Below, in pieces: positions 1-19,244 of a stretch of DNA of 64,000 nt. The notes under the pieces are model-generated. The model did no database searches. It saw only the letters and a program-made list of their open reading frames with translations, and was not told the DNA's origin. Both the position numbers and the translations under genes were made by a program. The DNA lies in assembly GCF_055900595.2 (NCBI RefSeq), contig NZ_CM148325.1; one strand, 5' to 3'. Positions within the stretch are counted from its first letter, which is position 1. The number at the start of each line of letters is the position of its first letter.

Positions 1-159
1 TGCCCGCCTAACGCCTTTAATTCCGGCACCGATTTATTATTACTGGAACCAGGAAAAACGCATCGCCTGTTTTTTAATATTCACGGGCAGCACAATTAAT
101 TTCATTAAGAAAAAAACGAGATCATTGTTTAGGGTTGTATTTACACAACAGGAAATATT

Positions 160-1035: not shown

Positions 1036-1141
1036 TCATTATGCGGGTTTTAATTTATACCTTCACACATTCTTTAATTAATGAAACCTGTAATAACAGG
1101 ATGGCATGAAATATTAGTTTTATACTCTATGGAGATTATTT

Positions 1142-3178
1142 ATGGATACGCCACGCCCACAGTTATTAGATTTTCAATTTCATCAGAATAACGACAGTTT
1201 TACTCTACGTTTTCAAGACCGTCTTATTTTAATCCATAGCAAAGATAATCCTTGCTTATCGATTGGCTCAGGTATAGCGGATATCGATATGTTCCGCGGT
1301 AATTTCAGCATTAAAGATAAATTGCAGGAGAAAATTGCGCTGACCGACGCCATCGTCAGCCAGTCACCGGATGGCTGGTTAATCCATTTCTGCCGTGGTT
1401 CTGACATTAGCGCCACGCTGCATATCTCTACTGACGAACAAGGCCGTTTAGTGCTGAAACTGCAAAACGATGATCGTCACCATAACCGCATCTGGCTGCG
1501 TCTCGCCGCACAACCAGAGGACCATATCTACGGCTGCGGCGAACAATTCTCCTACTTTGATCTGCGCGGCAAACCGTTCCCGCTATGGACCAGTGAACAA
1601 GGCGTTGGTCGCAACAAACAAACCTATGTCACCTGGCAGGCCGACTGCAAAGAGAACGCGGGCGGCGACTATTACTGGACTTTCTTCCCGCAGCCTACTT
1701 TTGTCAGCACGCAGAAGTATTACTGCCATGTCGATAACAGCTGCTATATGAACTTCGACTTCAGTGCTCCGGAATACCATGAACTGGCATTGTGGGAAGA
1801 CAATGCCACCCTGCGTTTTGAATGTGCGGACACATACATCTCCCTGTTGGAAAAATTAACCGCCCTGCTGGGACGTCAGCCAGAACTGCCCGACTGGATT
1901 TATGACGGGGTAACGCTAGGTATTCAGGGCGGGACAGATGTATGCCAGAAGAAACTGGACACCATGCGTAACGCGGGCGTGAAGGTCAACGGCATCTGGG
2001 CGCAGGACTGGTCCGGGATCCGTATGACCTCTTTTGGCAAACGTGTGATGTGGAACTGGAAGTGGAACAGTGAAAACTACCCACAGTTAGATTCCCGCAT
2101 CAAGCAATGGAAAGAAGAAGGCGTGCAGTTCCTCGCCTACATCAACCCGTATGTTGCCAGCGATAAAGATCTCTGCGAAGAAGCGGCGCAACATGGCTAT
2201 CTGGCAAAAGATGCCTCTGGCGGTGACTATCTGGTGGAATTTGGGGAGTTTTACGGCGGCGTTGTCGATTTGACCAATCCTGAAGCCTATTCCTGGTTTA
2301 AAGAGGTCATCAAGAAAAACATGATCGAATTGGGCTGCGGCGGCTGGATGGCAGATTTTGGCGAATATTTGCCGACCGATACGTATCTGCATAACGGCGT
2401 TAGCGCCGAAATTATGCATAACGCCTGGCCCGCACTGTGGGCGAAATGTAACTACGAAGCCCTTGAAGAAACGGGCAAGCTTGGCGAGATCCTTTTCTTT
2501 ATGCGCGCCGGTTCTACCGGTAGCCAGAAATACTCCACCATGATGTGGGCGGGCGACCAGAACGTCGACTGGAGTCTGGACGATGGCCTGGCGTCGGTTG
2601 TTCCGGCGGCGCTCTCGCTGGCGATGACCGGGCATGGCCTGCATCACAGTGACATTGGCGGTTACACCACCCTGTTTGAGATGAAGCGCAGCAAAGAGCT
2701 GCTGCTGCGCTGGTGCGATTTCAGCGCCTTCACGCCGATGATGCGCACCCACGAAGGTAACCGTCCTGGCGACAACTGGCAGTTTGACGGCGACGCGGAA
2801 ACCATCGCCCATTTTGCCCGTATGACCACCGTCTTCACCACCCTGAAACCTTACCTCAAAGACGCCGTCGCGCAGAACGCGAAGTCCGGTCTGCCCGTTA
2901 TGCGCCCGCTGTTCCTGCATTACGAAGACGATGCACACACCTACACCCTGAAATATCAGTACCTGCTGGGCCGCGACATTCTGGTCGCTCCGGTGCACGA
3001 GCAAGGTCGCAGCGACTGGACGCTCTATCTGCCAGAGGATAACTGGGTCCACACCTGGAGCGGAGAAACCTTCCACGGCGGAGAAGTCACCGTTGAAGCG
3101 CCCATCGGCAAACCGCCGGTCTTTTATCGCGCCGACAGCGAATGGGCTGCACTGTTCGCCTCGTTAAAAAGCATCTAA
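1142..3178 (+). CDS. yihQ: Sulfoquinovosidase (GH31 alpha-glucosidase family)
   Basis: 678-aa ORF matching my recollection of E. coli YihQ in length and sequence; GGAG precedes the ATG. Confidence 0.9.
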   Translation: MDTPRPQLLDFQFHQNNDSFTLRFQDRLILIHSKDNPCLSIGSGIADIDMFRGNFSIKDKLQEKIALTDAIVSQSPDGWLIHFCRGSDISATLHISTDEQGRLVLKLQNDDRHHNRIWLRLAAQPEDHIYGCGEQFSYFDLRGKPFPLWTSEQGVGRNKQTYVTWQADCKENAGGDYYWTFFPQPTFVSTQKYYCHVDNSCYMNFDFSAPEYHELALWEDNATLRFECADTYISLLEKLTALLGRQPELPDWIYDGVTLGIQGGTDVCQKKLDTMRNAGVKVNGIWAQDWSGIRMTSFGKRVMWNWKWNSENYPQLDSRIKQWKEEGVQFLAYINPYVASDKDLCEEAAQHGYLAKDASGGDYLVEFGEFYGGVVDLTNPEAYSWFKEVIKKNMIELGCGGWMADFGEYLPTDTYLHNGVSAEIMHNAWPALWAKCNYEALEETGKLGEILFFMRAGSTGSQKYSTMMWAGDQNVDWSLDDGLASVVPAALSLAMTGHGLHHSDIGGYTTLFEMKRSKELLLRWCDFSAFTPMMRTHEGNRPGDNWQFDGDAETIAHFARMTTVFTTLKPYLKDAVAQNAKSGLPVMRPLFLHYEDDAHTYTLKYQYLLGRDILVAPVHEQGRSDWTLYLPEDNWVHTWSGETFHGGEVTVEAPIGKPPVFYRADSEWAALFASLKSI

Positions 3179-3223
3179 TCACGTCCGCCCGTGGGGAAAC
3201 TCACGGGCACAGGGAGAACAACG

Positions 3224-4609
3224 ATGAGTCACATCACAACGGAAGATCCGGCTACTTTACGCCTGCCCTTTAAAGAGAAACTCTCTTACGGTATCGGCGA
3301 TCTGGCCTCTAACATCCTGCTGGATATCGGCACGCTTTATCTTTTGAAGTTTTATACCGACGTTCTGGGGCTGCCCGGTACCTATGGCGGCATTATCTTT
3401 TTGATTTCGAAGTTCTTTACTGCGTTTACCGATATGGGTACCGGCATCATGCTCGATTCCCGACGCAAGATCGGTCCAAAAGGTAAGTTCCGTCCTTTTA
3501 TTCTGTATGCGTCATTCCCGGTCACCTTACTGGCGATCGCCAACTTTGTCGGCACACCGTTTGATGTCACCGGTAAAACGGTGATGGCCACTATCCTGTT
3601 TATGCTCTACGGGCTGTTTTTCAGCATGATGAACTGCTCTTATGGCGCAATGGTCCCCGCTATTACCAAAAACCCCAACGAACGCGCATCACTGGCGGCA
3701 TGGCGTCAGGGTGGCGCTACATTGGGCCTGCTGCTTTGTACGGTGGGATTCGTGCCGGTTATGAATCTTATCGAGGGTAATCAGCAACTTGGCTATATCT
3801 TCGCCGCCACGCTGTTTTCACTGTTCGGCCTGCTGTTTATGTGGATCTGCTATTCGGGCGTGAAAGAGCGTTATGTCGAAACGCAACCTGCAAATCCGGC
3901 GCAAAAGCCAGGCTTGTTGCAGTCTTTCCGCGCAATTGCCGGTAACCGCCCGCTGTTCATTTTGTGCATTGCTAACCTCTGTACCTTAGGGGCATTTAAC
4001 GTCAAGCTCGCCATTCAGGTCTATTACACCCAGTACGTGCTTAACGATCCCATCCTGTTGTCATATATGGGATTTTTCAGCATGGGCTGTATTTTCATCG
4101 GCGTGTTCCTGATGCCTGGTGCAGTCAGACGTTTTGGTAAGAAGAAGGTCTATATCGGCGGCCTGCTGATTTGGGTGCTGGGCGATCTGCTCAACTATTT
4201 CTTCGGCGGCGGCTCGGTCAGTTTTGTGGCGTTCTCCTGCCTGGCATTCTTCGGCTCGGCGTTTGTTAACAGCCTGAACTGGGCACTGGTTTCCGACACC
4301 GTCGAGTACGGCGAGTGGCGCACCGGCGTTCGTTCGGAAGGTACGGTCTACACCGGCTTCACCTTCTTTCGCAAAGTATCTCAGGCGCTGGCAGGTTTCT
4401 TCCCAGGCTGGATGCTGACGCAAATCGGCTATGTGCCAAACGTGGCGCAGGCTGACCATACCATCGAAGGTTTACGCCAGCTGATCTTCATCTACCCAAG
4501 CGCACTGGCGGTAGTCACCATTGTTACGATGGGTTGCTTCTACAGTCTGAACGAGAAAATGTACGTCCGCATTGTTGAAGAAATAGAAGCCCGTAAACGC
4601 ACGGCATAA
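3224..4609 (+). CDS. yihP: GPH-family sugar:cation symporter (putative DHPS/sulfoquinovose transporter)
   Basis: Start placed at internal ATG (MSHITTEDP) preceded by GGGAG; 461 aa, multi-TM, paralogous to the next gene. Confidence 0.85.
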   Translation: MSHITTEDPATLRLPFKEKLSYGIGDLASNILLDIGTLYLLKFYTDVLGLPGTYGGIIFLISKFFTAFTDMGTGIMLDSRRKIGPKGKFRPFILYASFPVTLLAIANFVGTPFDVTGKTVMATILFMLYGLFFSMMNCSYGAMVPAITKNPNERASLAAWRQGGATLGLLLCTVGFVPVMNLIEGNQQLGYIFAATLFSLFGLLFMWICYSGVKERYVETQPANPAQKPGLLQSFRAIAGNRPLFILCIANLCTLGAFNVKLAIQVYYTQYVLNDPILLSYMGFFSMGCIFIGVFLMPGAVRRFGKKKVYIGGLLIWVLGDLLNYFFGGGSVSFVAFSCLAFFGSAFVNSLNWALVSDTVEYGEWRTGVRSEGTVYTGFTFFRKVSQALAGFFPGWMLTQIGYVPNVAQADHTIEGLRQLIFIYPSALAVVTIVTMGCFYSLNEKMYVRIVEEIEARKRTA

Positions 4610-4617
4610 ATAATAAA

Positions 4618-4636
4618 CAACGCCCTGCGGGGCGTT
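4618..4636 (+). terminator. Short GC stem-loop between yihP and yihO (weak terminator/attenuator)
   Basis: aacgccctgcggggcgtt inverted repeat immediately after the yihP stop; no strong T-tract follows. Confidence 0.3.
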
Positions 4637-4649
4637 ATAAGGAGTGATT

Positions 4650-6053
4650 ATGTCTGACCATAATCCACTGACATTAAAACTGAATCTGCGGGAAAAAATC
4701 GCTTATGGCATGGGCGACGTCGGTTCGAATTTAATGCTTAGCATCGGCACTCTGTATCTCCTCAAATTTTATACCGATGAATTAGGGATGCCTGCTTACT
4801 ATGGCGGGATTATCTTTCTGGTGGCAAAATTCTTTACCGCGTTTACCGATATGCTCACCGGATTTTTACTCGACTCGCGGAAAAATATTGGGCCTAAAGG
4901 CAAATTTCGTCCCTTTATTTTATATGCAGCGGTTCCGGCGGCGTTAATTGCAACGCTCCAGTTTATCGCCACCACTTTTAGTTTGCCGATTAAAACGACG
5001 ATTGCCACCGCGCTGTTTATGATGTTTGGACTTTCATACAGTCTGATGAACTGCTCGTATGGCGCGATGATTCCAGCAATTACCAAAAACCCCAATGAGC
5101 GCGCGCAGCTTGCGGCTTACCGCCAGGGTGGTGCAACCATAGGGCTATTGATTTGTACCGTAGCATTTATTCCACTGCAGTCGCTTTTTTCTGACTCCAC
5201 TGTCGGTTATGCCTGCGCGGCACTGATGTTCTCCATTGGTGGCTTTATTTTTATGATGCTGTGCTACAGAGGCGTCAAAGAGCATTATGTGGACACGACG
5301 CCAACCGGACATAAAGCCAGTATTCTCAAATTTTTTTGCGCGATATTTCGTAATCCGCCATTGCTGGTTTTATGCATTGCTAACCTGTGTACCCTGGCGG
5401 CATTTAATATCAAACTGGCAATTCAGGTCTATTACACCCAGTATGTGCTGAATGATATTAATTTATTGTCGTGGATGGGATTCTTCAGTATGGGATGCAT
5501 CCTCATCGGCGTATTGCTGGTGCCATTAACTGTAAAATGTTTTGGTAAAAAACAGGTTTATTTAGCTGGCATGGTGCTGTGGGCGGTGGGGGATATCCTG
5601 AATTATTTCTGGGGCAGTAACTCTTTCACTTTCGTCATGTTCTCTTGTGTCGCCTTTTTTGGTACGGCCTTTGTGAACAGCCTGAACTGGGCGTTAGTTC
5701 CTGACACCGTAGATTACGGTGAATGGAAAACCGGTATTCGTGCCGAAGGTTCTGTTTATACTGGTTATACCTTCTTTCGTAAAATTTCTGCCGCACTTGC
5801 TGGCTTCTTGCCAGGCATTATGCTGACGCAAATCGGTTATGTTCCCAACATCGCGCAAAGCGATGCAACATTACAGGGTTTGCGTCAGCTCATTTTTATT
5901 TGGCCTTGTGCGCTGGCGATAATTGCTGCATTGACGATGGGATTCTTTTACACGCTCAATGAAAAACGTTTTGCGTTAATTATTGAGGACATCAACCAAC
6001 GTAAAAATAAAGAGATTGAGACAAAAGAAAAAACTGCTTCCGTAACGTTATAA
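4650..6053 (+). CDS. yihO: GPH-family sulfoquinovose transporter
   Basis: 467 aa from ATG at 4650 (MSDHNPL) with AAGGAG 6 nt upstream; the ORF track begins at an in-frame GTG at 4644. Confidence 0.85.
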   Translation: MSDHNPLTLKLNLREKIAYGMGDVGSNLMLSIGTLYLLKFYTDELGMPAYYGGIIFLVAKFFTAFTDMLTGFLLDSRKNIGPKGKFRPFILYAAVPAALIATLQFIATTFSLPIKTTIATALFMMFGLSYSLMNCSYGAMIPAITKNPNERAQLAAYRQGGATIGLLICTVAFIPLQSLFSDSTVGYACAALMFSIGGFIFMMLCYRGVKEHYVDTTPTGHKASILKFFCAIFRNPPLLVLCIANLCTLAAFNIKLAIQVYYTQYVLNDINLLSWMGFFSMGCILIGVLLVPLTVKCFGKKQVYLAGMVLWAVGDILNYFWGSNSFTFVMFSCVAFFGTAFVNSLNWALVPDTVDYGEWKTGIRAEGSVYTGYTFFRKISAALAGFLPGIMLTQIGYVPNIAQSDATLQGLRQLIFIWPCALAIIAALTMGFFYTLNEKRFALIIEDINQRKNKEIETKEKTASVTL

Positions 6054-6120
6054 ATGTCAATAGCCGCTATTTCCATCCTGATGGGTGGCGGCCCCCCTAC
6101 GTTAAAAAAATGGACTTATT

Positions 6121-6813
6121 ATGAAAAAGATTAATGCAATAATTTTATTATCTTCTCTGACCTCTGCCTCGGTATTTGCTGGCGCATACGTCGAAAACAG
6201 GGAGGCATATAATCTCGCCTCCGATCAGGGCGAGGTTATGCTACGTGTGGGTTATAACTTCGATATGGGCGCGGGTATCATGTTAACCAATACCTACAAC
6301 TTTCAGCGCGAAGATGAACTAAAACATGGATATAACGAAATTGAAGGCTGGTATCCGTTATTTAAACCAACCGATAAATTAACCATCCAGCCCGGTGGAT
6401 TAATTAATGATAAGAGCGCCGGTTCCGGTGGTGCAGTATATCTGGACGTCAACTATAAATTTGTACCATGGTTTAATCTGACAGTGCGAAATCGCTATAA
6501 CCATAATAACTACAGTTCAACAGATTTGAACGGGGAGCTGGATAATAATGACACCTATGAAATTGGTACCTACTGGAATTTCAAAATCACCGATAAATTC
6601 TCCTATACATTTGAGCCACATTATTTTATACGCGTAAATGACTTTAATAGCAGCAATGGAAAAGATCATCATTGGGAAATCACTAATACCTTCCGTTACC
6701 GTATTAATGAACACTGGCTGCCTTATTTCGAATTACGCTGGTTAGACCGCAACGTCGAGCCGTATCACCGCGAGCAAAACCAGATTCGTATCGGAACGAA
6801 GTATTTCTTCTGA
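6121..6813 (+). CDS. ompL: Outer membrane porin L
   Basis: 230-aa ORF with N-terminal signal peptide (MKKINAIILLSSLTSASVFA) and C-terminal aromatic residue typical of beta-barrel proteins. Confidence 0.85.
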   Translation: MKKINAIILLSSLTSASVFAGAYVENREAYNLASDQGEVMLRVGYNFDMGAGIMLTNTYNFQREDELKHGYNEIEGWYPLFKPTDKLTIQPGGLINDKSAGSGGAVYLDVNYKFVPWFNLTVRNRYNHNNYSSTDLNGELDNNDTYEIGTYWNFKITDKFSYTFEPHYFIRVNDFNSSNGKDHHWEITNTFRYRINEHWLPYFELRWLDRNVEPYHREQNQIRIGTKYFF

Positions 6814-7025
6814 TGTGAAAATGTAAAAAGTCGCTGATATGGACTGCCCCCCATAAAGTTGGACAGTTCAGGTTAAGCGGCTTTTTACACAGATATTCAC
6901 AATATAAATAACTCCCCATAATTATATAACCACGTTGATTATAAAATATTCCTCGTCCTCTCTATCAAAGTCATTGACTACCAGGTAAGATCTTTTCCAC
7001 CGCAACACTCACAAGGAATGAGAAA

Positions 7026-7874
7026 ATGGAAAAGAAATTTTTTATGGATTGGGATAATGAAATCCCGCAAGAAGAGTTTATTAACAATATTTTAGCCGAT
7101 GAAGACCTGCCTAAAATCCGCTCTCTGATTATTGGTCGTTGGGGGGAGTGCTGGGATGAGGAAAGTTGCCAACCAATAATCGACATGTTTGTTGAACATG
7201 CCGAACGCTTTGCTCATCTCGAATCCCTATTTATCGGCGATATGGAAAGCGAAGAGTGTGAAATTTCGTGGATAAAACAAGGGGATTATTCTCGTCTGTA
7301 TGCTGCGCTGCCGAACCTCAAAAAGCTGACAATTAAAGGTACTCAGGGCCTGGAACTGGGAGAAATCGCCCATGACAAACTGGAGCATCTGGAAATTATC
7401 TCTGGCGGTACGCCGTGTGACGTGTTCGCCTCATTGCAAAATGCCCAACTGCCTGCGTTAAAAACACTTATCGTTTATATTGGCGTTGAGAATTATGGTT
7501 TTGATGCATCGCTGGATATCGTAATGAAGCTGGCGTCGAAATCCCTCTTCCCGAGCCTGACGCATCTTGGCCTGGTGAACAGCGAAGAGCAAAACGAAAT
7601 CGTCCGCCGCGTGCTGGAAAGCGACATTCTGCCGCAACTGGAAGTGCTGGCACTCTCCTGCGGTACGCTTACCGACGAAGGTGCAGAGCATCTTCTCAAA
7701 CATGCCGATCGCCTTAGCCATCTGAAACTGCTGGATTTGTACCATCATTACCTGACAGAAGAGATGCAGAAAAAACTGCAAAAAACACTGACATGTACTC
7801 TCGAATTATCAGAAGCGCTAACGCCTGAAGTCTATGATGACGAAATTTATATGCATGCGATGTATACCGAATAA
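7026..7874 (+). CDS. Leucine-rich-repeat-like acidic cytoplasmic protein (I recall the family being labelled STM4015-like)
   Basis: 282-aa ORF with no signal peptide; repeated L-P-x-L-K-x-L / L-x-x-L-x-L segments (LPNLKKLTIKG, LEHLEIISGG, LPALKTLIVYIG, FPSLTHLGLVNS, LPQLEVLALSCG, LSHLKLLDL); AAGGA 8 nt upstream of ATG. Confidence 0.7.
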   Translation: MEKKFFMDWDNEIPQEEFINNILADEDLPKIRSLIIGRWGECWDEESCQPIIDMFVEHAERFAHLESLFIGDMESEECEISWIKQGDYSRLYAALPNLKKLTIKGTQGLELGEIAHDKLEHLEIISGGTPCDVFASLQNAQLPALKTLIVYIGVENYGFDASLDIVMKLASKSLFPSLTHLGLVNSEEQNEIVRRVLESDILPQLEVLALSCGTLTDEGAEHLLKHADRLSHLKLLDLYHHYLTEEMQKKLQKTLTCTLELSEALTPEVYDDEIYMHAMYTE

Positions 7875-7934
7875 ATGACATTTATTGGGAGAGAGTCATC
7901 TCTCCCATTATTTATCACAGAAAAGGAATTCTTC

Positions 7935-8921
7935 GTGATTACGCTAATTGGTCATCCTGAAAGCAAACGCACATTTTATTTTTGCCAGGCAGCGTCACGC
8001 TTACAGGAACATATCAACGTAGTGAGCTATGATCAAGCACTTACCCTGCTCTTAAATAAAGGCATGGTAAAAATCGATCCCCCCTTACATCAGGAAACAG
8101 ATATTCGCTTAATTAATACGGTTAGCCAAAACTATATTACTTTTTTACAAAAAATGGCTACCAGAAGGGAGATCCGTTTTATTAACTCACCAGAAGGTAT
8201 TATTCATCTTCTGGATAAACGCCACTGTAAGCAACGATTAGTCGAACACGCGATCCCGACACCGCCAATATTAGCGGATGATATCCGTAGCTACGATCAA
8301 CTGATCGCCTGTATGCGCAGCGAAAAGGTTTATCGCGTGTTTATTAAGCCGAATTTCGGATCAGGGGCCGCCGGGGTGCTGGCTTTGAGTCTACATCCCG
8401 GCGATAACCGTCAGGTGCTTTATTGCGCCATCCAGGTTGCAGGTGACAGGCTGGTGAACAGTAAACATATTATCCGCTATGAAAACAGCGGTGATATTAC
8501 GTTGATTGTGAATGCTATTTTACAACAAGACAATATTATCGAACGCTGGCTGGCAAAAGCCAGAGTGGGCAATAAAAGCTACGATTTACGCATCGTGTAC
8601 GTTAATGGTGAAATCGTCTGGCGGGTTGTCAGAACATCATCACAGCCGATCACCAATTTACATTTACAAAATGAAGCTATCCGTTTTGCCGATCTTAATT
8701 TACCCGTAGAAAAAGTAGCTGAAATTGATACGCTTTGTCTCAACGCCATGACCCTCTATCCGGACGTACACATTGCCGGGCTTGACGTATTACTCACGCA
8801 AAATTTAACACCCTATATTATCGAAATTAACGGCCAGGGCGATCTTATTTATCAGGACACCTGCGAAAAAAACAAAATTTATCAACGCCAGATTCAGGTA
8901 ATGAGAGAACATCATGTATAA
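7935..8921 (+). CDS. ATP-grasp-like protein (I recall the family being labelled STM4014-like)
   Basis: ORF 7875-8921; start placed at in-frame GTG 7935 because AAGGA lies 7 nt upstream, but the ATG at 7875 immediately after the preceding stop is an alternative. The ATP-grasp assignment is by resemblance only. Confidence 0.55.
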   Translation: MITLIGHPESKRTFYFCQAASRLQEHINVVSYDQALTLLLNKGMVKIDPPLHQETDIRLINTVSQNYITFLQKMATRREIRFINSPEGIIHLLDKRHCKQRLVEHAIPTPPILADDIRSYDQLIACMRSEKVYRVFIKPNFGSGAAGVLALSLHPGDNRQVLYCAIQVAGDRLVNSKHIIRYENSGDITLIVNAILQQDNIIERWLAKARVGNKSYDLRIVYVNGEIVWRVVRTSSQPITNLHLQNEAIRFADLNLPVEKVAEIDTLCLNAMTLYPDVHIAGLDVLLTQNLTPYIIEINGQGDLIYQDTCEKNKIYQRQIQVMREHHV

Positions 8922-9786
8922 CGTAACAGACGAAGTACCGGAAAATACCCGCACGGCAATCCATTCCTGCGATGGCGAAATCAATCTGAATGATTTAATT
9001 GCCAGGGAAGCCAATATCCTGTTTGTGGTGCTTGATTCCCTGCGTTTTGATATTGCGTTTCAGGAACAAGAGGCGGGAAATACACCAAATATTAACCGCT
9101 ATGGTCGCTGGATAAAGTGTGAAGCCGCTGGCAATTTTACCTGGCCTTCGCATCATTCGATGTTCTCTGGTTTTATGCCTAAGCCGCTGGAAGCTGCACC
9201 TGGTCATTCAATGCTCTTTTTCCCGAAAGATATTGGTTTAGGTCGTTTAGGGCCAAAAAATGCGTTCGCGTTCAGCGAAGAGACGTGGATTAAAGGGCTG
9301 GAAAACAAAGGTTACCGCACTATCTGCGTGGGTGGCGTCTCCTTTTTTAATAACCGCTCAGGGATGGGAAAAGTGTTCCCGGCGATGTTTAAAGAGAGTT
9401 ACTGGTATCCTAATTTCTCCTGCACGGTGAAAGAGAGCATGGATAATCAGCTCACCTTAATTAACAAAAAGGTGAACGCTGAACAGCCGCTGATGATGTA
9501 TATCAATATCGACACCATTCATTATCCGAATCATTTTTATATTGAAAATGCCAAACCTGGCGATACGGTAGAAACTCACGCCGCTGCCCTGCATTATATT
9601 GATGCCAGAATCGAAAAACTTTTCGATATCTTTCGGCAAACCGGGCGGGAGACGTTAGTTATTCTCTGTTCCGATCATGGCACCTGCTACGGGGAAGACG
9701 GTAAATATTTCCACAGTTTTAACCATCCGATTGTGAATACCGTACCCTATTTTCACTTTGTGTTAGACGGCAAAGACCATGAATAA
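8914..9786 (+). CDS. Alkaline-phosphatase-superfamily metallo-hydrolase (phosphodiesterase/phosphomutase/sulfatase-like core)
   Basis: 290-aa ORF with N-terminal FVVLDSLRFD motif typical of AlkP-core metal-binding enzymes; start overlaps the upstream stop by 8 nt. Confidence 0.7.
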   Translation: MYNVTDEVPENTRTAIHSCDGEINLNDLIAREANILFVVLDSLRFDIAFQEQEAGNTPNINRYGRWIKCEAAGNFTWPSHHSMFSGFMPKPLEAAPGHSMLFFPKDIGLGRLGPKNAFAFSEETWIKGLENKGYRTICVGGVSFFNNRSGMGKVFPAMFKESYWYPNFSCTVKESMDNQLTLINKKVNAEQPLMMYINIDTIHYPNHFYIENAKPGDTVETHAAALHYIDARIEKLFDIFRQTGRETLVILCSDHGTCYGEDGKYFHSFNHPIVNTVPYFHFVLDGKDHE

Positions 9787-11017
9787 TGAATCGATTTATC
9801 AGCAATATATGTACAGTTACCCGCATAAGACCGCTTATCGGGAATTAAACAATATTGCTTTTGCGGATGTGAAATCGCGTATTTACGAGCATAAAACACA
9901 TCTCTATATTCATATGCCTTTTTGCCAGAGCCGCTGCGGGTTTTGTAATCTCTTTACCTGCACGGGGGCAGACAATGCCTTTATCGACAACTACATAGAA
10001 GCAATTATTATCCAGGCCCGGCAAATGCAACTTGCGCCTGTAGACTGGGCCAGTTTTACCATTGGCGGCGGTACGCCACTACTGCTTAATACCGGGCAAC
10101 TGTCACGGTTGTTTCGCGGGGTGTTTGACGAATTACAGGTCGATGCGCAGATTTTTAAGGCAATTGAAACATCGCCTTCCGATACCACCGCCGAAAAGGT
10201 CGCGTTATTGCGCCAGCTTGCGGTAAACCGCGTCAGTATTGGCATTCAGAGTTTTAACGATCTGGAACTTGCCACATTACACCGCCGCCATAGTGCGGAA
10301 AATGCCCATCGGGCGCTGGAGCTACTGCGCAGGGGTAATTTCCCGATAATCAATATTGATATTATTTACGGTATTCCTGGTCAAACAGCCGCAAGTTTAA
10401 TGGCGTCGCTTAATCAAGCATTAGATTATCAGCCTGACGAACTGTTTCTGTACCCGCTATATAACATGCCGCGTCAGCCGGATATGTATAGCCTCTATAT
10501 TGAAGCCCGCGATCGCTTATTGCATGAAGGTTATACGCAAACGTCAATGCGCCGTTTTGTGCGGGTGAATAATGATTCGGCGGCTGAAAGTTGTGGCTTT
10601 GAAAATTCGCTGGCGCTTGGCGCGGGCGGGCGCAGTTATCTTGGCAATTTACATTACTGCACGCCGTGGTCGCAAAACCAGCCCGCATCGCGGCAAATTG
10701 TCACGGATTTTATCGCCCGGCCAGATAAGACCCAGATTCACCACGGCTATGTACTTTCACAAGCAGAAATGAAGCGGCGTTTTATTATCAAGAATCTCTT
10801 TTTCTATAAGGGGCTTTCGTTACGGGATTATCAGCACCAGTTCTTCTCTGAGGTATTAAGCGATTTTCCCCTGCTGGGCGATTTCATCAAACAAGATTAC
10901 TGCCACCAGCAGGATAATCGTATTCTGCTCACCGCGCAGGGTTTAGCGCTTTCGGACCAGCTTGGCCCGCTGTTTATCTCCCCGGAAGTTCGCAGGCTGG
11001 AGACGCATAAACGATGA
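9779..11017 (+). CDS. HemN/HemW-like radical SAM protein
   Basis: 412-aa ORF with YIHMPFCQSRCGFC (C49-x3-C53-x2-C56) radical SAM motif in HemN-like context; start overlaps the upstream stop. Confidence 0.8.
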   Translation: MNNESIYQQYMYSYPHKTAYRELNNIAFADVKSRIYEHKTHLYIHMPFCQSRCGFCNLFTCTGADNAFIDNYIEAIIIQARQMQLAPVDWASFTIGGGTPLLLNTGQLSRLFRGVFDELQVDAQIFKAIETSPSDTTAEKVALLRQLAVNRVSIGIQSFNDLELATLHRRHSAENAHRALELLRRGNFPIINIDIIYGIPGQTAASLMASLNQALDYQPDELFLYPLYNMPRQPDMYSLYIEARDRLLHEGYTQTSMRRFVRVNNDSAAESCGFENSLALGAGGRSYLGNLHYCTPWSQNQPASRQIVTDFIARPDKTQIHHGYVLSQAEMKRRFIIKNLFFYKGLSLRDYQHQFFSEVLSDFPLLGDFIKQDYCHQQDNRILLTAQGLALSDQLGPLFISPEVRRLETHKR

Positions 11018-11871
11018 CGCTCAAGCAGATCCAGACGCTGATTTATCGCGGCGAGATAAAGTCGTGTAATTATCGCTGTGGTTATTGCCCTTTTCATAAA
11101 CAAGACCGCAATGATAAACAGCAGGATGAAGTGGCATTATGGCGCATGGTTGAACATTTACCGGCGCAGGGTTCACCATTAAATGTATTTATTACGCCCT
11201 ACGGCGAAGCATTGCGTTATCGTTATTATATGGCGGCGATGGCGGAAATCAGCCGCTATTCCCATGTGCAGGCGGTGGGTATTCAGACCAACGCCTCTTT
11301 TAATTTATCCACCTTAGTCGCGACTTTTCAGCACTCTCAGGGCGATTTAGCAAAGCTGCGGCTGTGGTGTTCGTTTCATCCTTCCCAGGCAAGTAAAGAA
11401 GTTTTCCTTAAACAGTTACTGGCAATTAAGGACACGGGGATTACCTGTTCTGTGGGGGCCGTCGCCAGCGTAGCCGACTATGACGAATTACAGTGGTTAC
11501 GCGCGCATCTTCCTCCCGATATCTATTTCTGGCTAAACGCCAATGAGCGCGATAAAAGGCCCACCAGCGACGAAAGAAATAGCCAGTTTCAGTTGCTGGA
11601 CCCGCTTTATTATCTGGAAACCAGCCTCTGGCCTGCCAATGTCGAGTTTTGTCTGGGCGGCAAAAAGAGCGTGTTTATGAATGCTGATGGCGATCTCTTC
11701 GCCTGTAATATCAGCAAAATTAAGATTGGCAATTTATATCAACAGCAACTTTCATCTCCGTCTTGTATGTCCAGGCACTGTCACTGTTATCTGGCTTATC
11801 ACCTGCGTGAGGATATTCCGGCCCTCTCACAATTTGATGCTGAACGCTGCTTTCGGATCTTCTCGTTATGA
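11014..11871 (+). CDS. Small radical SAM protein with C-terminal Cys/His cluster
   Basis: 285-aa ORF; CNYRCGYC (C18-x3-C22-x2-C25) near N-terminus; C231, C251, C256, C258 near C-terminus; ATGA overlap with upstream stop. Confidence 0.75.
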   Translation: MTLKQIQTLIYRGEIKSCNYRCGYCPFHKQDRNDKQQDEVALWRMVEHLPAQGSPLNVFITPYGEALRYRYYMAAMAEISRYSHVQAVGIQTNASFNLSTLVATFQHSQGDLAKLRLWCSFHPSQASKEVFLKQLLAIKDTGITCSVGAVASVADYDELQWLRAHLPPDIYFWLNANERDKRPTSDERNSQFQLLDPLYYLETSLWPANVEFCLGGKKSVFMNADGDLFACNISKIKIGNLYQQQLSSPSCMSRHCHCYLAYHLREDIPALSQFDAERCFRIFSL

Positions 11872-12563
11872 TCTGGCGGTTAATCGCGCTCGATTTAGAC
11901 GGCACATTGCTGAACAGCAAGAAGATGATTTCCCCTGCGTCTGTTTCGGCACTGCAAAGCGCACAACAGGCAGGTGTGAAAATTATCCTCGCCACCGGAC
12001 GTTCGCACAGCGAAGCCCTGCCTTATTACCAACAATTGCAGTTAACCGAGCCGATGATTTGCTGTAACGGCAGCTATCTTTATCATCCGCGCCAGCGGCA
12101 AATATTGCGTCCGCTGGCGCTTGATATCCACAAGGTGGAAAGGCTACGACTCTGGTTTTCACAACAAATATTGCAGCCAAATATTTATACGTACGATGAT
12201 TTTGTTTTGCAGATTAGCCTGATACACCGCAAGGCTTCGTTATTGCGCCAGACAGAGGAATTTGCCCGACAAGAATTATCGCTGGCCTGTAGCTGGTCCT
12301 GGCATCATCAACTGGATATTACACAGGTGGGGTGTGAGAAAGGCAAAAGTCTGGCCTGGTATGCCCGACAGCAAAATATCGTGCTGGATGAAATCATCGC
12401 CTTTGGCGATAACGATAATGATGCGGGGATGCTGCGGATGGTAGGCAAAGGGATTGCGATGGGCAATGGCAGTTCGCTGGCAAAAGTCAGTGCTGACCGC
12501 GTTATTGGTCACAACAACACAGATGCTATTGCGGATTTTCTTGATGCGCAGGGTTTCAGATGA
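11868..12563 (+). CDS. HAD-superfamily Cof-type phosphatase
   Basis: 231-aa ORF with N-terminal ALDLDGTLL motif (HAD motif I) and GDNDND near the C-terminus; ATGA overlap with upstream stop. Confidence 0.8.
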   Translation: MIWRLIALDLDGTLLNSKKMISPASVSALQSAQQAGVKIILATGRSHSEALPYYQQLQLTEPMICCNGSYLYHPRQRQILRPLALDIHKVERLRLWFSQQILQPNIYTYDDFVLQISLIHRKASLLRQTEEFARQELSLACSWSWHHQLDITQVGCEKGKSLAWYARQQNIVLDEIIAFGDNDNDAGMLRMVGKGIAMGNGSSLAKVSADRVIGHNNTDAIADFLDAQGFR

Positions 12564-12564
12564 C

Positions 12565-12600
12565 GCCTGATGCGATGCTGACGCATCTTATCAGGCCTAC
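12565..12600. repeat. REP (repetitive extragenic palindromic) element
   Basis: gcctgatgcgatgctgacgcatcttatcaggcctac, the typical enterobacterial REP palindrome. Confidence 0.75.
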
Positions 12601-12604
12601 AAAA

Positions 12605-12637
12605 GCAAAAAACCTGCCATCGCTGGCAGGTTTTTTA
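12605..12637. terminator. Bidirectional rho-independent terminator (typA and the upstream operon)
   Basis: A-tract, cctgccatcgctggcagg hairpin, then TTTTTT, between convergent genes. Confidence 0.8.
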
Positions 12638-12653: not shown

Positions 12654-14477
12654 TTAATCGTCTTTCGGTGCGCGGTTGGCGCGACGACGATCGTTTTCCG
12701 TCAGGTGACGTTTACGAATACGGATAGAGGTCGGAGTCACTTCTACCAGTTCGTCATCATCGATGAACTCCAGCGCTTGTTCCAGCGTCATGCGGATAGG
12801 CGGAACCAGAACAACGGCTTCGTCAGTACCGGAAGCACGCATGTTGGTCAGTTTCTTACCGGTCAGACAGTTTACAGTCAGGTCGTTAGAACGGCTGTGA
12901 ATACCGATAATCTGACCTTCGTAAACTTCTGCACCGTGACCGAGGAACAGCTTACCGCGATCCTGCAGACCGAACAGCGCGAACGCGACCGCTTTACCCT
13001 GACCGTTAGAGATCAGTACGCCGTTCTGACGCTGACCCACTTCACCCGGACGCACGTCGTCGTAGTGGCTGAAGGTGGAGTACAACAGACCCGTACCAGA
13101 GGTCATGGTCATGAACTCAGAACGGAAGCCAATCAGACCACGGCTTGGGATCACGTAGTCGAGACGTACGCGGCCTTTACCGTCTGGATTCATGTTTTTC
13201 AGGTCGCCTTTACGTTCGCCCAGCGCCTGCATCACAGAACCCTGATGCTGTTCTTCAACGTCCAGCGTCACGTTTTCATACGGCTCTTGTTTACGACCGT
13301 CGATTTCACGGAAGATAACTTTCGGACGGGATACCGCCAGTTCGAAACCTTCACGACGCATGTTTTCGATCAGAACAGACAGGTGCAGTTCGCCACGACC
13401 AGAAACGCGGAACGCATCGGCGTCTTCAGTTTCTTCTACGCGCAGCGCAACGTTGTGTACCAGTTCTTTGTTCAGACGATCCAGAATCTGACGAGACGTT
13501 ACGAACTTACCTTCTTTACCGCAGAACGGCGAGGTGTTAACGCAGAAGAACATAGAAACGGTCGGCTCATCAACGGAGAGTGCCGGCAGCGCTTCAACGT
13601 TTTGCGTGTCGCAAACGGTGTCAGAAATGTTCAGTTCGCCCAGGCCCGTGATCGCCACGATATCGCCAGCTTCCGCCAGATCGGTTTCGATACGTTCCAG
13701 ACCGAGGTGGCCCAGCACTTTACCGACTTTCGCGTTGCGGGTTTTGCCTTCGCTATCGATGATAGTAACTTGCTGGTTCGGCTTCACTTTACCGCGCTTG
13801 ATGCGGCCAATGCCGATAACGCCAACATAGCTGTTGTAATCGAGCTGAGAAATCTGCATCTGGAACGGACCGTCAAGGTCAACGTCCGGCGCAGGAACGT
13901 GGTCAACAATTGCCTGATACAGCGGGGTCATGTCTTCCGCCATATCTTCGTGGTCCAGACCGGCGATACCGTTCAGCGCAGAAGCGTAAACGATCGGGAA
14001 GTCCAGCTGCTCGTCGGTCGCGTCGAGGTTAACGAACAGGTCGAATACCTGATCCACAACCCAGTCAGGACGCGCGCCAGGGCGGTCAACTTTGTTGATA
14101 ACAACAATTGGCTTCAGGCCGTAAGCAAACGCTTTTTTGGTTACGAAGCGCGTTTGCGGCATCGGGCCGTCAAATGCGTCAACCACCAGCAGCACTGAGT
14201 CTACCATGGACATTACACGTTCAACTTCACCACCGAAGTCGGCGTGCCCCGGGGTATCAACGATGTTGATACGGTAATCATTCCATTTGATAGCGGTGTT
14301 TTTCGCGAGGATGGTAATCCCACGCTCTTTCTCCAAATCGTTGGAGTCCATCACGCGCTCTTGGGTTTCGGCACGAGAGTCGAACGTACCGGATTGTTGG
14401 AGCAGCTTGTCTACCAGGGTGGTTTTACCATGGTCTACGTGCGCGATGATGGCGATATTACGCAATTTTTCGATCAC
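12654..14477 (-). CDS. typA: Ribosome-associated translational GTPase BipA/TypA
   Basis: 607-aa ORF with G-domain motifs ([18 protein letters not shown]). Confidence 0.95.
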
Positions 14478-14626
14478 AACTTTGCCTCAGGCATTAGAAA
14501 TAGCGCGTTATTGTACACGGATTAATCGCACTACAAAACAGGATCACAAACATCCTCCGCAAACAAGTATTGCAGAGTCCCTTTGTGATCGCTTTCACGG
14601 AGCATAAAAAGGGTTATCCAAAGGTC

Positions 14627-14720
14627 ATTGCACCAATATGGTGCTTAATGTTTCCATTGAAGCACTATATTGGTGCAATATTCACATCGTGGTGCAGCCC
14701 TTTTGCACGATGGTGCGCAT
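14627..14720 (+). promoter_or_regulatory. NtrC (NRI) enhancer binding sites upstream of glnA
   Basis: Repeated TGCACC-N5-GGTGCA-like dyads (tgcaccaatatggtgc, gcactatattggtgca, ggtgcagcccttttgcac). Confidence 0.7.
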
Positions 14721-16259: not shown

Positions 16260-16320
16260 TAGTTGAAGTTGTACTACCCGGTGCTAAGAAGGCCGGGATT
16301 TAGTTGCCGTGGAAACTTTC

Positions 16321-16346
16321 AGCCCATCTCTGCATGGGCTTTTTTC
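16321..16346 (+). terminator. glnA rho-independent terminator
   Basis: agcccatctctgcatgggct hairpin followed by TTTTTT. Confidence 0.75.
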
Positions 16347-19140: not shown

Positions 19141-19244
19141 GCCGGATGCGGAGAAAGTCGTAGGCCTGATAAGACGCGACCAGCGTCGCATCAGGCATCA
19201 TGCTCAGATGCCGGATGCAGCGTAAACGCCTTATCCGGCCTACA
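19141..19244. repeat. REP/BIME cluster
   Basis: Several gccggatgcg...cgcatccggc / gcctgataagacgcg...cgtcgcatcaggc palindromic units. Confidence 0.75.

What the first reader, a model, noticed from the sequence alone, without database searches (positions are those of the whole stretch)
6814..12637. typA-ompL interval behaves as a replacement hotspot; composition shifts inside the cluster
Conserved genes flank the cluster on both sides and the right boundary carries a REP element and a bidirectional terminator (12565-12637). By eye, the first three genes (about 7026-9786) are clearly more AT-rich than neighbouring core genes such as typA and glnA, while the radical SAM and HAD genes look near genome-average. 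That pattern fits horizontal acquisition or a mosaic origin. No integrase, transposase or direct repeats were seen.
Basis: partly seen in the sequence, partly recalled or inferred. Interest (0 to 1): 0.45.

Follow-up and report, generated by a model that had tools for sequence, protein, structure and literature searches.

The report
Swappable gene slot downstream of typA
The stretch between ompL and typA is a real gene-swapping slot in E. coli, and this strain fills it with a rare six-gene enzyme cassette of unknown function that Salmonella carries at the same place, so the locus is an ordinary hotspot and only the cassette is mildly intriguing.

Summary
Window 7026-12563 carries six co-directional, overlapping genes between ompL and the 3' end of typA: STM4015-, STM4014-, STM4013-, STM4012- and STM4011-family proteins plus a Cof-type HAD phosphatase. 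They end at a REP (12565-12600) and typA's terminator (12606-12637). There is no integrase, transposase, tRNA or flanking repeat.

Among 5,426 complete E. coli genomes the slot holds yihLMN in 4,238, nothing in 840 and this cassette in 157 (the window's allele in 8). Each state occurs with either of two alternative left-hand sugar operons. It is a real hotspot without mobile elements.

Composition is weak evidence. The first three genes are 44% GC and the last three 48% (p=0.007). But ompL, yihO and K-12's yihLMN are equally AT-rich, codon usage is unremarkable, and Salmonella shows no step.

The cassette is neither a recent import nor a mosaic. It has the same order at the same site in Salmonella, Superficieibacter and E. 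marmotae. These form one enterobacterial clade whose only other relatives found are gut Clostridia and Bacteroides. typA-yihLMN is shared with Citrobacter and Klebsiella, so yihLMN is probably the older occupant.

Function is unknown. An LRR protein with an invariant C-terminal Glu next to a RimK/LysX-like ATP-grasp hints, speculatively, at tail-directed modification.

The parts
6121..6813 (+). ompL (porin OmpL), the conserved left flank in this configuration
   Evidence: ORF and RefSeq annotation of the 99.9%-identical strain. GC 0.407.
6814..7025 (+). Intergenic region upstream of the cassette. It holds a hairpin (arms 6822-6835 and 6876-6889) split by a 32-bp insertion at 6841-6872, and a weak promoter-like site at 6896-6925. 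This sequence accompanies the cassette only when ompL is the left neighbour.
   Evidence: Junction comparison of the window, H2 allele, FDAARGOS_497, LF82 and E. marmotae. Inverted repeat I15. Promoter scan.
7026..7874 (+). STM4015-family protein, 282 aa. It is a ribonuclease-inhibitor-like leucine-rich-repeat protein with a flexible tail ending in M-Y-T-E-COOH.
   Evidence: NCBIfam NF038076, 323 bits against a cut-off of 275. AlphaFold2 pLDDT 92.5. PDB 2RA8 at 45% identity. C-terminal Glu in 113 of 114, 30 of 30 and 143 of 147 homologues.
7875..8921 (+). STM4014-family ATP-grasp ligase. The ORF starts at 7875; RefSeq relatives start at the equivalent of 7935. A hairpin at 7886-7907 lies in the spacer.
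   Evidence: NF038074, 336.6 bits against 175, with weaker hits to MptN, RimK, LysX and CofF. Pfam ATP-grasp families. Model pLDDT 90.3; the best PDB folds are ArgX-LysW, PsnB, RimK and LysX. Hairpin.
8914..9786 (+). STM4013/SEN3800-family hydrolase. It has the alkaline-phosphatase-superfamily fold with a Thr-nucleophile motif F-T-W-P-S-H and a D-H-G metal motif, so it resembles a phosphodiesterase or phosphotransferase rather than a sulfatase.
   Evidence: NF038075, 351 bits against 250. Pfam Sulfatase and Phosphodiest. Invariant motifs in 15 homologues.
9779..11017 (+). STM4012-family HemN-like radical SAM protein (CQSRCGFC and GGGTP motifs)
   Evidence: NF006067, 491.8 bits against 380. Below cut-off for HemW, HemN and ChuW. 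Pfam Radical_SAM and HemN_C.
11014..11871 (+). STM4011-family radical SAM protein (CNYRCGYCPF, plus a C-terminal Cys-rich region). In Clostridia and a Gram-negative metagenome genome it is fused to a HAD phosphatase.
   Evidence: NF038073, 299.5 bits against 200. Alignment of 14 homologues. Fusions of about 480-520 aa.
11868..12563 (+). Cof-type HAD-IIB phosphatase, 231 aa, the equivalent of Salmonella's sixth gene. Catalytic motifs are intact and the cap domain is short.
   Evidence: TIGR00099, 179 bits against 137. Alignment with Salmonella, Superficieibacter and YigL. The fusion to the STM4011 domain in other phyla marks it as part of the cassette.
12565..12600 (.). REP element (palindromic dispersed repeat) at the right junction. 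It is also present in the 'empty' ompL-typA state.
12606..12637 (.). Bidirectional intrinsic terminator shared by typA and the cassette. The typA-proximal sequence from about 12607 onward is the only part of the interval common to all E. coli states.
   Evidence: 14-pair stem. (conserved in K-12, Nissle, AVS0575, AR_0086 and LF82).
12654..14477 (-). typA (bipA), the conserved right flank, convergent with the cassette
   Evidence: Protein identical to K-12's (WP_000570668.1).

Best explanation
The DNA just downstream of typA is a long-lived slot with alternative contents and no mobile-element machinery.

Shown:
- In E. coli the slot holds yihLMN (78%), nothing (15%) or the six-gene STM4015-STM4010 cassette (2.9%).
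- The segment to its left independently holds either the ompL-yihOPQRST sulfoquinovose operon or a different DeoR-regulated sugar operon. All six combinations exist.
- The window carries the rare combination that is also the standard Salmonella arrangement.
- The cassette is one conserved operon, not a patchwork. It has the same gene order in three enterobacterial genera and in gut Clostridia, overlapping start and stop codons, and purifying selection (dN/dS 0.05-0.27).
- Its modest AT-richness, and the GC step after the third gene, are features of the Escherichia lineage and of this chromosomal neighbourhood. They are not marks of recent foreign origin.

Inferred:
- yihLMN is the older occupant, because typA-yihLMN is also found in Citrobacter and Klebsiella.
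- The cassette entered Enterobacteriaceae once, long ago, from a gut anaerobe.
- States are now exchanged or lost by ordinary homologous recombination in the conserved flanks and by deletion. typA's terminator is the fixed right edge, and REP or terminator hairpins lie at the junctions.

Speculative: the cassette is a self-contained enzyme set (ATP-grasp ligase, two radical SAM enzymes, an alkaline-phosphatase-fold phosphoesterase, a HAD phosphatase) working with or on the LRR protein STM4015.
For: Census:
- Cassette: 157 genomes, all chromosomal, one copy each; 8 at 99% identity or more, 148 at 90-95%.
- yihLMN: 4,238.
- ompL|typA empty: 216.
- DeoR|typA empty: 624.
- 156 of the 157 carriers have the HAD gene abutting typA.

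All six combinations: K-12, Nissle and S1-CAM-02-A, AVS0575, AR_0086, the window, strain S1-ESP-02-A and FDAARGOS_497, LF82.

Junctions:
- The typA terminator is common to every state.
- The cassette lies between ompL stop +10 nt and the REP.
- yihLMN lies between a REP and the terminator, with the same left edge (GGTTGATACGG) in K-12 and Nissle.

No mobile-element marks.

Same site and order elsewhere: Salmonella, Superficieibacter, E. marmotae, and an Escherichia assembly lacking both sugar operons.

typA-yihLMN is present in Citrobacter freundii and Klebsiella aerogenes. YihM identity falls with phylogenetic distance, and no Salmonella appears in the list.

Divergence:
- Enterobacterial STM4012 proteins are at least 70% identical to each other and at most 49% identical to all others.
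- dS between the window and E. marmotae is 0.18-0.36 in the cassette, against 0.26 in glnA.

The GC step is absent in Salmonella and Superficieibacter. yihLMN, ompL and yihO are equally AT-rich.

Known framework: most E. coli hotspots lack tRNAs and integrases, and inserts can spread by homologous recombination in the flanks (PMC2617782; PMC5635113).
Against: - Cassette proteins are much more diverged between Escherichia and Salmonella (55-76% identity, dS saturated) than the neighbours yihQPO and ompL (85-88%) or typA and glnA (96-98%).
- Salmonella and Superficieibacter are closer to each other (68-79%) than either is to Escherichia. This fits faster evolution in Escherichia, but equally fits separate imports of related cassettes into the same site.
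- The direction of the deep transfer is inferred only from diversity and abundance. Enterobacterial sequences are not nested inside a sampled Clostridial clade.
- Recombination in the flanks was not measured formally. I saw only a mosaic of 87-100% identity along the cassette, and a left flank that is 94.4% identical to K-12 against 96-98% elsewhere.
- About 191 genomes were not classified.
- The one genome-collection scan missed Salmonella and E. marmotae because it needs exact 8-residue matches. Absence from other genera is therefore not established.
Confidence: 0.72

Rival explanations
1. The cassette, not yihLMN, is the ancestral occupant for the Escherichia-Salmonella lineage. Most E. coli lost it and later gained yihLMN.
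For: The arrangement yihQPO-ompL | cassette | typA-glnALG is identical in Salmonella, Superficieibacter and the window. The cassette also lies next to typA in E. marmotae and another Escherichia assembly. Cassette dS against E. marmotae is similar to that of glnA.
Against: typA-yihLMN is found in Citrobacter and Klebsiella, with YihM identity tracking phylogeny: 80% for Citrobacter, 71-73% for Klebsiella, 66-69% for Serratia. The simplest reading is that yihLMN was already there first.
Confidence: 0.15
2. Both gene sets once sat side by side (ompL - cassette - REP - yihNML - terminator - typA). Today's states arose by differential deletion, not replacement.
For: The two occupy different sub-sites relative to the REP, with the cassette on the ompL side and yihLMN on the typA side. 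Empty states retain REP plus terminator.
Against: In 156 of 157 carriers the HAD gene abuts typA. No locus examined in any genus carries both. The REPs at the two positions are different REP variants.
Confidence: 0.08
3. The cluster is a mosaic of two separately acquired halves (STM4015-4014-4013 and STM4012-4011-HAD), which would explain the GC step.
For: The GC step (0.442 against 0.481, p = 0.007) falls exactly at a boundary where the two gene groups are separated or rearranged in some distant loci (L011, L025). The second group occurs alone in L018, L029 and L032.
Against: The six genes are contiguous, with overlapping stop and start codons (8914/8921, 9779/9786, 11014/11017, 11868/11871). 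They are co-linear in three enterobacterial genera and most Clostridial loci. The step is absent in Salmonella (0.486, 0.500, 0.459 | 0.477, 0.491, 0.465) and Superficieibacter. Both halves show the same 35-54% identity to Clostridial homologues.
Confidence: 0.07
4. A recent foreign genomic island was inserted in this strain by a mobile element that has since decayed.
For: GC is below average, and the cassette is rare in E. coli (2.9%; the window's allele is in 8 genomes).
Against: No integrase, transposase, tRNA or direct repeats. Same site and order in other genera. Codon usage is not atypical. Allele diversity of 5-12% within Escherichia argues for long residence.
Confidence: 0.03

Closest known systems
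Salmonella enterica STM4010-STM4015 locus (source of the NCBIfam family names)
   Same: The same six genes in the same order and orientation, at the same site between ompL and the 3' end of typA, with yihO, yihP, yihQ and glnALG around them. All five named proteins pass the curated NCBIfam cut-offs.
   Different: Only 55-76% protein identity and 59-73% nucleotide identity. Salmonella has its own terminator and no REP at the right junction. Its HAD is 244 aa against 231 aa here. Salmonella shows no GC step.
E. coli K-12 yihL-yihM-yihN (the alternative occupant)
   Same: It lies in the same interval, bounded by the same typA terminator. GC is similarly low at 0.49, 0.44 and 0.45.
   Different: Unrelated genes (GntR regulator, sugar-phosphate isomerase/epimerase, MFS transporter). 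Opposite strand, co-directional with typA. It sits on the typA side of a REP rather than the ompL side.
MGE-independent integration or replacement hotspots of E. coli (Touchon et al. 2009, PMC2617782; Oliveira et al. 2017, PMC5635113)
   Same: Different gene content between the same conserved genes in different strains, no tRNA or integrase, and spread proposed to occur by homologous recombination in the flanks.
   Different: This locus is not named in the main text of those papers. It has few, discrete, old alternatives rather than a rapidly turning-over assortment, and the same alternatives segregate across genera.
RimK-S6 and LysX/ArgX-LysW (ATP-grasp ligases acting on the C-terminal Glu of a partner protein)
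   Same: STM4014 has weak sequence matches to RimK, LysX, MptN and CofF. Its model's best PDB matches are ArgX-LysW, RimK and LysX. The adjacent STM4015 always ends in Glu. RimK adds Glu to the C-terminus of S6 (PMC10375531 abstract).
   Different: Scores are far below those families' cut-offs (37.6 against 143.4; 31.1 against 275.6). D-Ala-D-Ala ligases match nearly as well. The partner is a 282-aa LRR protein, not a small Zn-ribbon or ribosomal protein. Stand-alone relatives of STM4015 keep the terminal Glu without any neighbouring ATP-grasp.
PDB 2RA8, uncharacterised protein Q64V53 of Bacteroides fragilis (structural genomics)
   Same: 45% identity and TM-score 0.87 to the STM4015 model. 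It ends in P-M-I-T-E before the tag.
   Different: It carries about 80 extra N-terminal residues, as in the WGR-fused homologues. The depositors' name for it is 'uncharacterized protein'.

Membership tests
STM4011-STM4015 conserved cassette (NCBIfam NF038076, NF038074, NF038075, NF006067, NF038073) | Each protein scores above the curated family cut-off | tested here: met
   323.1 against 275; 336.6 against 175; 351.1 against 250; 491.8 against 380; 299.5 against 200.
STM4011-STM4015 conserved cassette | Co-linear gene order 4015-4014-4013-4012-4011, followed by (or fused to) a HAD phosphatase | tested here: met
   Window ORFs. The same order in Salmonella, Superficieibacter, E. marmotae and most Clostridial loci.
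Integrase- or tRNA-associated genomic island | Integrase, recombinase or transposase gene | tested here: not met
   None of the six proteins has such a domain. No other ORF of 200 aa or more lies in the interval.
Integrase- or tRNA-associated genomic island | tRNA or tmRNA at an edge, and flanking direct repeats | tested here: not met
   No tRNA in 1-22000. Only short chance repeats.
Integrase- or tRNA-associated genomic island | Composition or codon usage distinct from the surrounding genome | tested here: inconclusive
   GC is 0.44-0.48 against 0.517 (sd 0.037), but ompL, yihO, yihF and K-12's yihLMN are equally low. Codon-usage deviation is within range.
MGE-independent recombination hotspot (Touchon 2009; Oliveira 2017) | Different gene content between the same conserved genes in different genomes of the species | tested here: met
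   Three contents combined with two left-hand modules in 5,426 genomes.
MGE-independent recombination hotspot | Excess homologous recombination or diversity in the flanking core genes | tested here: inconclusive
   The left flank is 94.4% identical to K-12 against 96-98% elsewhere, and the cassette shows an allele mosaic. No formal recombination test was run.
REP (repetitive extragenic palindromic) element | Imperfect palindrome of about 35 nt, present in many copies per genome in intergenic positions | tested here: met
   12565-12600. At least 40 places per genome (the reporting limit) in 5,425 of 5,426 genomes.
Intrinsic (rho-independent) terminator, bidirectional | GC-rich hairpin followed by a T-run on both strands | tested here: met
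   14-pair stem at 12606-12637 with A6 to the left and T6 to the right. Activity was not tested.
Radical SAM superfamily (STM4012, STM4011) | CxxxCxxC cluster-binding motif | tested here: met
   CQSRCGFC in STM4012. CNYRCGYC is invariant in 14 STM4011 homologues. Pfam PF04055.
Formylglycine-dependent sulfatase (Pfam name of STM4013) | C/S-x-P-x-R formylglycine motif | tested here: not met
   The invariant motif is F-T-x-P-[ST]-H, with Thr at the nucleophile position, plus S-D-H-G. By my own knowledge of the superfamily this resembles nucleotide pyrophosphatase/phosphodiesterase and phosphoethanolamine transferases.
RimK/LysX-type protein-tail ATP-grasp system | ATP-grasp enzyme of the RimK/LysX family by curated score | tested here: not met
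   RimK 37.6 against 143.4; LysX 31.1 against 275.6. The resemblance is at fold level only.
RimK/LysX-type protein-tail ATP-grasp system | Adjacent partner protein with a conserved C-terminal Glu | tested here: met
   STM4015 ends in Glu in 30 of 30 locus copies, 113 of 114 close homologues and 143 of 147 distant representatives. The trait also occurs without a neighbouring ATP-grasp.
RimK/LysX-type protein-tail ATP-grasp system | Demonstrated ATP-dependent ligation to the partner's C-terminus | not testable with these tools
   Needs mass spectrometry or an enzyme assay.
Known anti-phage defence systems (PADLOC) | A match to a defence-system protein model | tested here: not met
   Only one weak hit, of the radical SAM core, to a candidate model (E = 9e-6).

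The most novel reading that the evidence does not exclude
The cassette is a new protein-tail chemistry system of gut bacteria. The flexible, invariant C-terminal ...[P/A]-M-x-T-E tail of the LRR protein STM4015 would be the substrate or carrier arm on which the adjacent ATP-grasp ligase acts. That action could be RimK-like extension, LysW-like loading of an amino compound, or a graspetide-like ester or amide. The two radical SAM enzymes would tailor the product, and the phosphoesterase and HAD phosphatase would finish or release it. On this reading Salmonella and some E. coli (including LF82) carry an unrecognised post-translational modification or protein-templated metabolite pathway shared with Clostridia and Bacteroides.
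Probability: 0.2. Interest if true: 0.7.

Novelty: new member of a known kind. Interest (0 to 1): 0.38.

Why it matters
At the locus level this is a clean, quantified example of a well-known phenomenon. It is a chromosomal slot whose alternative contents are shuffled without mobile elements, here with discrete alternatives old enough to be shared across genera. That is useful for pangenome annotation. It is also a caution that low GC alone does not mark foreign DNA, because the 'native' alternative and the conserved flanks are equally AT-rich.

At the gene level, the cassette is a conserved, selected, entirely uncharacterised five-to-six-enzyme unit. It is present in Salmonella, in about 3% of E. 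coli complete genomes (including LF82) and in gut Clostridia and Bacteroides. One member already has a crystal structure (2RA8) with no assigned function. The invariant C-terminal Glu of its LRR protein gives a concrete hypothesis that can be tested cheaply.

Tried and rejected
- Defence system: the PADLOC scan of all six proteins gave nothing meaningful.
- Riboswitch or other RNA clue upstream: Rfam found only ES222 and naRNA4, both outside the interval.
- Link to sulfoquinovose catabolism by adjacency: rejected. The cassette occurs next to the alternative operon (LF82, E. marmotae) and next to yihX with neither operon present. In the Clostridial and Gram-negative metagenome loci no extra neighbour gene recurs.
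- STM4011 as a maturase making formylglycine in a 'sulfatase' STM4013: rejected. STM4013 has a Thr-type nucleophile motif, not C/S-x-P-x-R.
- Extra conserved partners (transporter, regulator, precursor peptide): clustering of all neighbouring ORFs in 34 loci found none beyond the five core families.
- C-terminal Glu as a cassette-specific signal: weakened. 143 of 147 distant representatives keep it, and three of those I looked up sit without the cassette.
- Decay of the HAD gene: rejected. The short cap domain is shared with Salmonella, the catalytic motifs are intact, and dN/dS is 0.16-0.24.
- Literature: only two passing mentions of STM4013 and STM4015, none for STM4010 or SEN3797-3802, and nothing on the locus as a hotspot. 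Iyer et al. 2009 on ATP-grasp neighbourhoods was not held.
- The single genome-collection scan returned Superficieibacter and 28 Clostridia but missed Salmonella and other Escherichia, because it needs exact 8-residue words. Those loci were recovered by exact-protein look-ups instead.

Full report
WHAT IS THERE

The window is E. coli, in the reverse of the K-12 orientation. The order is yihQ, yihP, yihO, ompL (6121-6813, +), then six + strand genes, then typA (12654-14477, -), glnA, glnL and glnG. The closest complete genome, strain Z0117EC0005, is 99.9% identical over the interval.

All five named proteins pass NCBI's curated family cut-offs:
- STM4015 family, 7026-7874
- STM4014 family ATP-grasp, 7875/7935-8921
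- STM4013/SEN3800 hydrolase, 8914-9786
- STM4012 HemN-like radical SAM, 9779-11017
- STM4011 radical SAM, 11014-11871

The sixth gene (11868-12563) is a Cof-type HAD-IIB phosphatase. Four of the five gene junctions overlap by 4-8 bases, which is typical of an operon. The interval ends with a REP (12565-12600) and a 14-pair hairpin flanked by an A-run and a T-run (12606-12637). That hairpin is typA's terminator, and the convergent cassette shares it. The REP belongs to a dispersed family with at least 40 places per E. coli genome.

CHECKING THE OBSERVATION

Every factual element holds.
- GC is 0.457, 0.428 and 0.444 for the first three genes and 0.479, 0.476 and 0.493 for the last three. typA is 0.535, glnA 0.526, and 36 other genes of the window average 0.517 (sd 0.037).
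- The step inside the cluster is real but small: 0.442 against 0.481, Mann-Whitney p = 0.007 on 99-bp blocks.
- There is no integrase, transposase, tRNA or meaningful flanking repeat.
- K-12 carries yihLMN here.

- The conserved neighbours ompL (0.407) and yihO (0.443) are at least as AT-rich. The compositional trough therefore begins inside the conserved flank and does not delimit the variable segment.
- The alternative occupant is just as AT-rich: K-12 yihN 0.450, yihM 0.439, yihL 0.491.
- Codon-usage deviation from the rest of the window (Karlin's B, 0.26-0.43) lies within the spread of ordinary genes (0.315, sd 0.078).

Composition is therefore not evidence for or against foreign origin at this locus.

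IS IT A REPLACEMENT HOTSPOT?

Yes. Counts among 5,426 complete E. coli genomes:

| Content downstream of typA | Genomes |
|---|---|
| yihLMN | 4,238 |
| Nothing, DeoR-family regulator gene next to typA | 624 |
| Nothing, ompL next to REP, terminator and typA | 216 |
| This cassette | 157 |
| Unclassified (for example IS-disrupted) | about 191 |

The 157 cassette copies are all chromosomal and single-copy.

The segment to the left is itself dimorphic. It is either the ompL-yihOPQRST sulfoquinovose operon, or a different operon encoding a DeoR regulator, a kinase, a reductase, an aldolase, an alcohol dehydrogenase, two MFS transporters and an epimerase.

All six combinations exist:

| | yihLMN | Empty | Cassette |
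|---|---|---|---|
| ompL-yihOPQRST operon | K-12 | AVS0575 | the window, strain S1-ESP-02-A and FDAARGOS_497 |
| Alternative DeoR operon | Nissle, S1-CAM-02-A | AR_0086 | LF82 |

In 156 of the 157 carriers the HAD gene directly abuts typA. Cassette and yihLMN are therefore alternatives, not neighbours.

JUNCTIONS

- The only sequence common to every state is typA's terminator (AAAAAACCTGCCATCGCTGGCAGGTTTTTT) and what lies to its right.
- The empty ompL state reads: ompL stop, about 10 nt, REP, terminator.
- The cassette lies between 'ompL stop + 10 nt' and that REP.
- yihLMN lies between a REP of a different variant and the terminator. Its left edge (GGTTGATACGG) is the same whether ompL or the DeoR gene is the neighbour.
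- The roughly 190 bp upstream of STM4015 differs with the left neighbour. Only about 25 nt before the start codon are shared between the ompL-linked and DeoR-linked cassettes.
- The common E. coli allele has only half a REP.

None of this looks like site-specific integration. It fits deletion and homologous exchange among hairpin-rich intergenic ends. The literature describes this as the usual nature of E. coli hotspots. 83% of them have no tRNA at the edge, more than half have no integrase, and spread is thought to occur by recombination in homologous flanks (PMC2617782; PMC5635113).

HOW OLD IS THE CASSETTE, AND WHERE DID IT COME FROM?

The same six genes lie at the same place in several lineages.
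- Salmonella enterica: yihT...yihQPO-ompL | cassette | typA-glnALG, which is exactly the window's layout.
- Superficieibacter electus: the same layout.
- E. marmotae: next to typA, with the DeoR operon on the left.
- Another Escherichia assembly: next to typA, with yihX on the left and no sugar operon.

Divergence within Escherichia:
- The cassette is under purifying selection (dN/dS 0.05-0.27).
- Its dS against E. marmotae (0.18-0.36) is similar to that of glnA (0.26).
- The two main E. coli alleles differ by about 5-6%, in a patchwork of 87-100% identity along the cassette. This shows long residence and recombination within the cassette.
- The window's allele is rare: 8 genomes at 99% identity or more.

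Between genera the proteins are only 55-76% identical, against 85-88% for yihQPO and ompL and 96-98% for typA and glnA. Salmonella and Superficieibacter are closer to each other than either is to Escherichia. This fits faster evolution in Escherichia, or more than one import into the same site. I cannot separate the two.

Outside the family:
- The relatives I found were gut Clostridia (28 of 29 loci in the species-representative scan, 41-48% identity for STM4012), a Gram-negative metagenome genome, and Bacteroides fragilis.
- Enterobacterial STM4012 sequences form one tight group, at least 70% identical to each other and at most 49% identical to any other.

The alternative occupant has a different history. 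typA-yihL-yihM-yihN is the arrangement in Citrobacter freundii and Klebsiella aerogenes. YihM identity declines smoothly with phylogenetic distance, and Salmonella is absent from the list.

The most economical reading is that yihLMN is the older occupant. The cassette is a single ancient import that displaced it in some lineages, and E. coli still segregates for both states and for loss.

IS THE CLUSTER A MOSAIC?

No, not in the sense proposed.
- The five core genes recur together in 26-31 of 34 loci, mostly in the same order.
- In Clostridia and the Gram-negative metagenome genome, STM4011 and the HAD phosphatase are fused into one protein of about 500 aa. This ties the sixth gene functionally to the rest.
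- The GC step is seen in all Escherichia alleles but not in Salmonella (0.486, 0.500, 0.459 | 0.477, 0.491, 0.465) or Superficieibacter.

One coincidence is worth recording. The step falls where two sub-modules (4015-4014-4013 and 4012-4011-HAD) are separated in a few distant loci, and the second sub-module sometimes occurs alone.

WHAT MIGHT THE CASSETTE DO? (inference only)

STM4015:
- It is a ribonuclease-inhibitor-like LRR protein (AlphaFold2 pLDDT 92.5) with a low-confidence C-terminal tail.
- A homologue has a structural-genomics crystal structure, 2RA8, deposited as an uncharacterised protein.
- Every copy ends in Glu. The cassette-linked subfamily ends in [P/A]-M-[L/Y/F/I]-T-E in 113 of 114 database homologues and 29 of 30 locus copies, the remaining copy ending in S-E. 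Among distant representatives at no more than 50% mutual identity, 143 of 147 end in [S/T/G/A]-E.
- Some loci carry two or three tandem STM4015 copies, and some copies have an N-terminal WGR domain.

STM4014:
- It is an ATP-grasp enzyme with weak matches to RimK, LysX, MptN and CofF.
- Its model's best structural matches are ArgX bound to LysW, the peptide-modifying PsnB, RimK and LysX. D-Ala-D-Ala ligases score almost as well.

The other enzymes:
- STM4013 has a Thr-type nucleophile motif and a DHG motif, so it looks like a phosphodiesterase or phosphotransferase rather than a sulfatase.
- STM4012 and STM4011 have intact radical SAM motifs.

This suggests chemistry directed at the STM4015 tail. 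Against it, three distant stand-alone STM4015 relatives that keep the terminal Glu have no ATP-grasp or radical SAM neighbour. The Glu is therefore a family trait that does not depend on the cassette. I put the tail-modification reading at about 0.2.

No defence-system model, riboswitch, transporter, regulator or conserved extra neighbour was found.

VERDICT

The finding is correct as an observation and mostly correct as an interpretation, but it describes an ordinary kind of locus: a hotspot without mobile elements and with a few old alternatives. The composition argument does not carry weight. The cassette is already named by NCBI and is standard in Salmonella, but it is functionally uncharacterised. 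Its conserved LRR tail is the one feature that might repay an experiment.

Noticed in passing
window 55157-60928: A second segment absent from K-12, between rmuC and udp. It has five + strand ORFs. The first is an IclR/KdgR-like regulator. The others (334, 324, 168 and 496 aa) have no NCBIfam match at E <= 1e-10. GC is ordinary (0.51-0.53).
   Followed up: partly
window 6841-6872: A 32-bp insertion (GGACTGCCCCCCATAAAGTTGGACAGTTCAGG) splits the loop of a terminator-like hairpin just after ompL. It is present in the window and its 99.9% relative but not in the two other ompL-linked cassette carriers checked. It occurs only once in the window.
   Followed up: partly
window 1-6813, compared with loci L003, L006, L007, L043, L047, L049: The segment left of the slot is itself dimorphic in Escherichia and Citrobacter. 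It is either the ompL-yihOPQRST sulfoquinovose operon, or a different operon encoding a DeoR regulator, kinase, reductase, aldolase, alcohol dehydrogenase, two MFS transporters and an epimerase. The window's yihQ-ompL segment is 94.4% identical to K-12, against 96-98% for the rest of the window.
   Followed up: partly
window 7886-7907: A 9-pair hairpin followed by a T-rich stretch lies in the 60-nt spacer between the STM4015 stop and the likely STM4014 start. The 60-nt spacer is present in the other Escherichia cassettes but not in Salmonella, where the genes are 12 nt apart; whether the hairpin itself is conserved was not checked. It could lower read-through into the enzyme genes.
   Followed up: no
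L001 4213-5060; protein P0029: STM4015 is annotated as frameshifted in the closest relative, strain Z0117EC0005, although it is intact in the window. A Salmonella Typhi entry (319 aa) has a different C-terminus resembling the end of STM4014 and is the only close homologue not ending in Glu. This hints at occasional pseudogenisation.
   Followed up: no
window 14559-14666 (-) and 19163-19240 (-): Rfam matches above the gathering score: ES222 sRNA between typA and glnA, and naRNA4 between glnG and hemN.
   Followed up: no
window 16271-16321: The glnA-glnL intergenic region differs in length from K-12 by about 110 bp and from Salmonella by about 100 bp.
   Followed up: no
Salmonella LT2 STM4013 (literature): A ChIP-chip study lists a sigma-54 holoenzyme binding site inside STM4013, in the orientation opposite to the gene (PMC3844500). 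STM4015 appears in a list of Salmonella genes with a serotype-Typhi-specific positive-selection signal (PMC2784778).
   Followed up: no
proteins P0241-P0387; loci L051-L053: The STM4015-like LRR family is very large: 6,271 representatives at E <= 0.001 and 1,058 at E <= 1e-30. Most members are about 310 aa, end in ...Y-R-Y-x-A-V-[S/G]-E, and, in the three cases looked up, stand alone without the cassette. A terminal Glu conserved across such a family is unexplained.
   Followed up: partly
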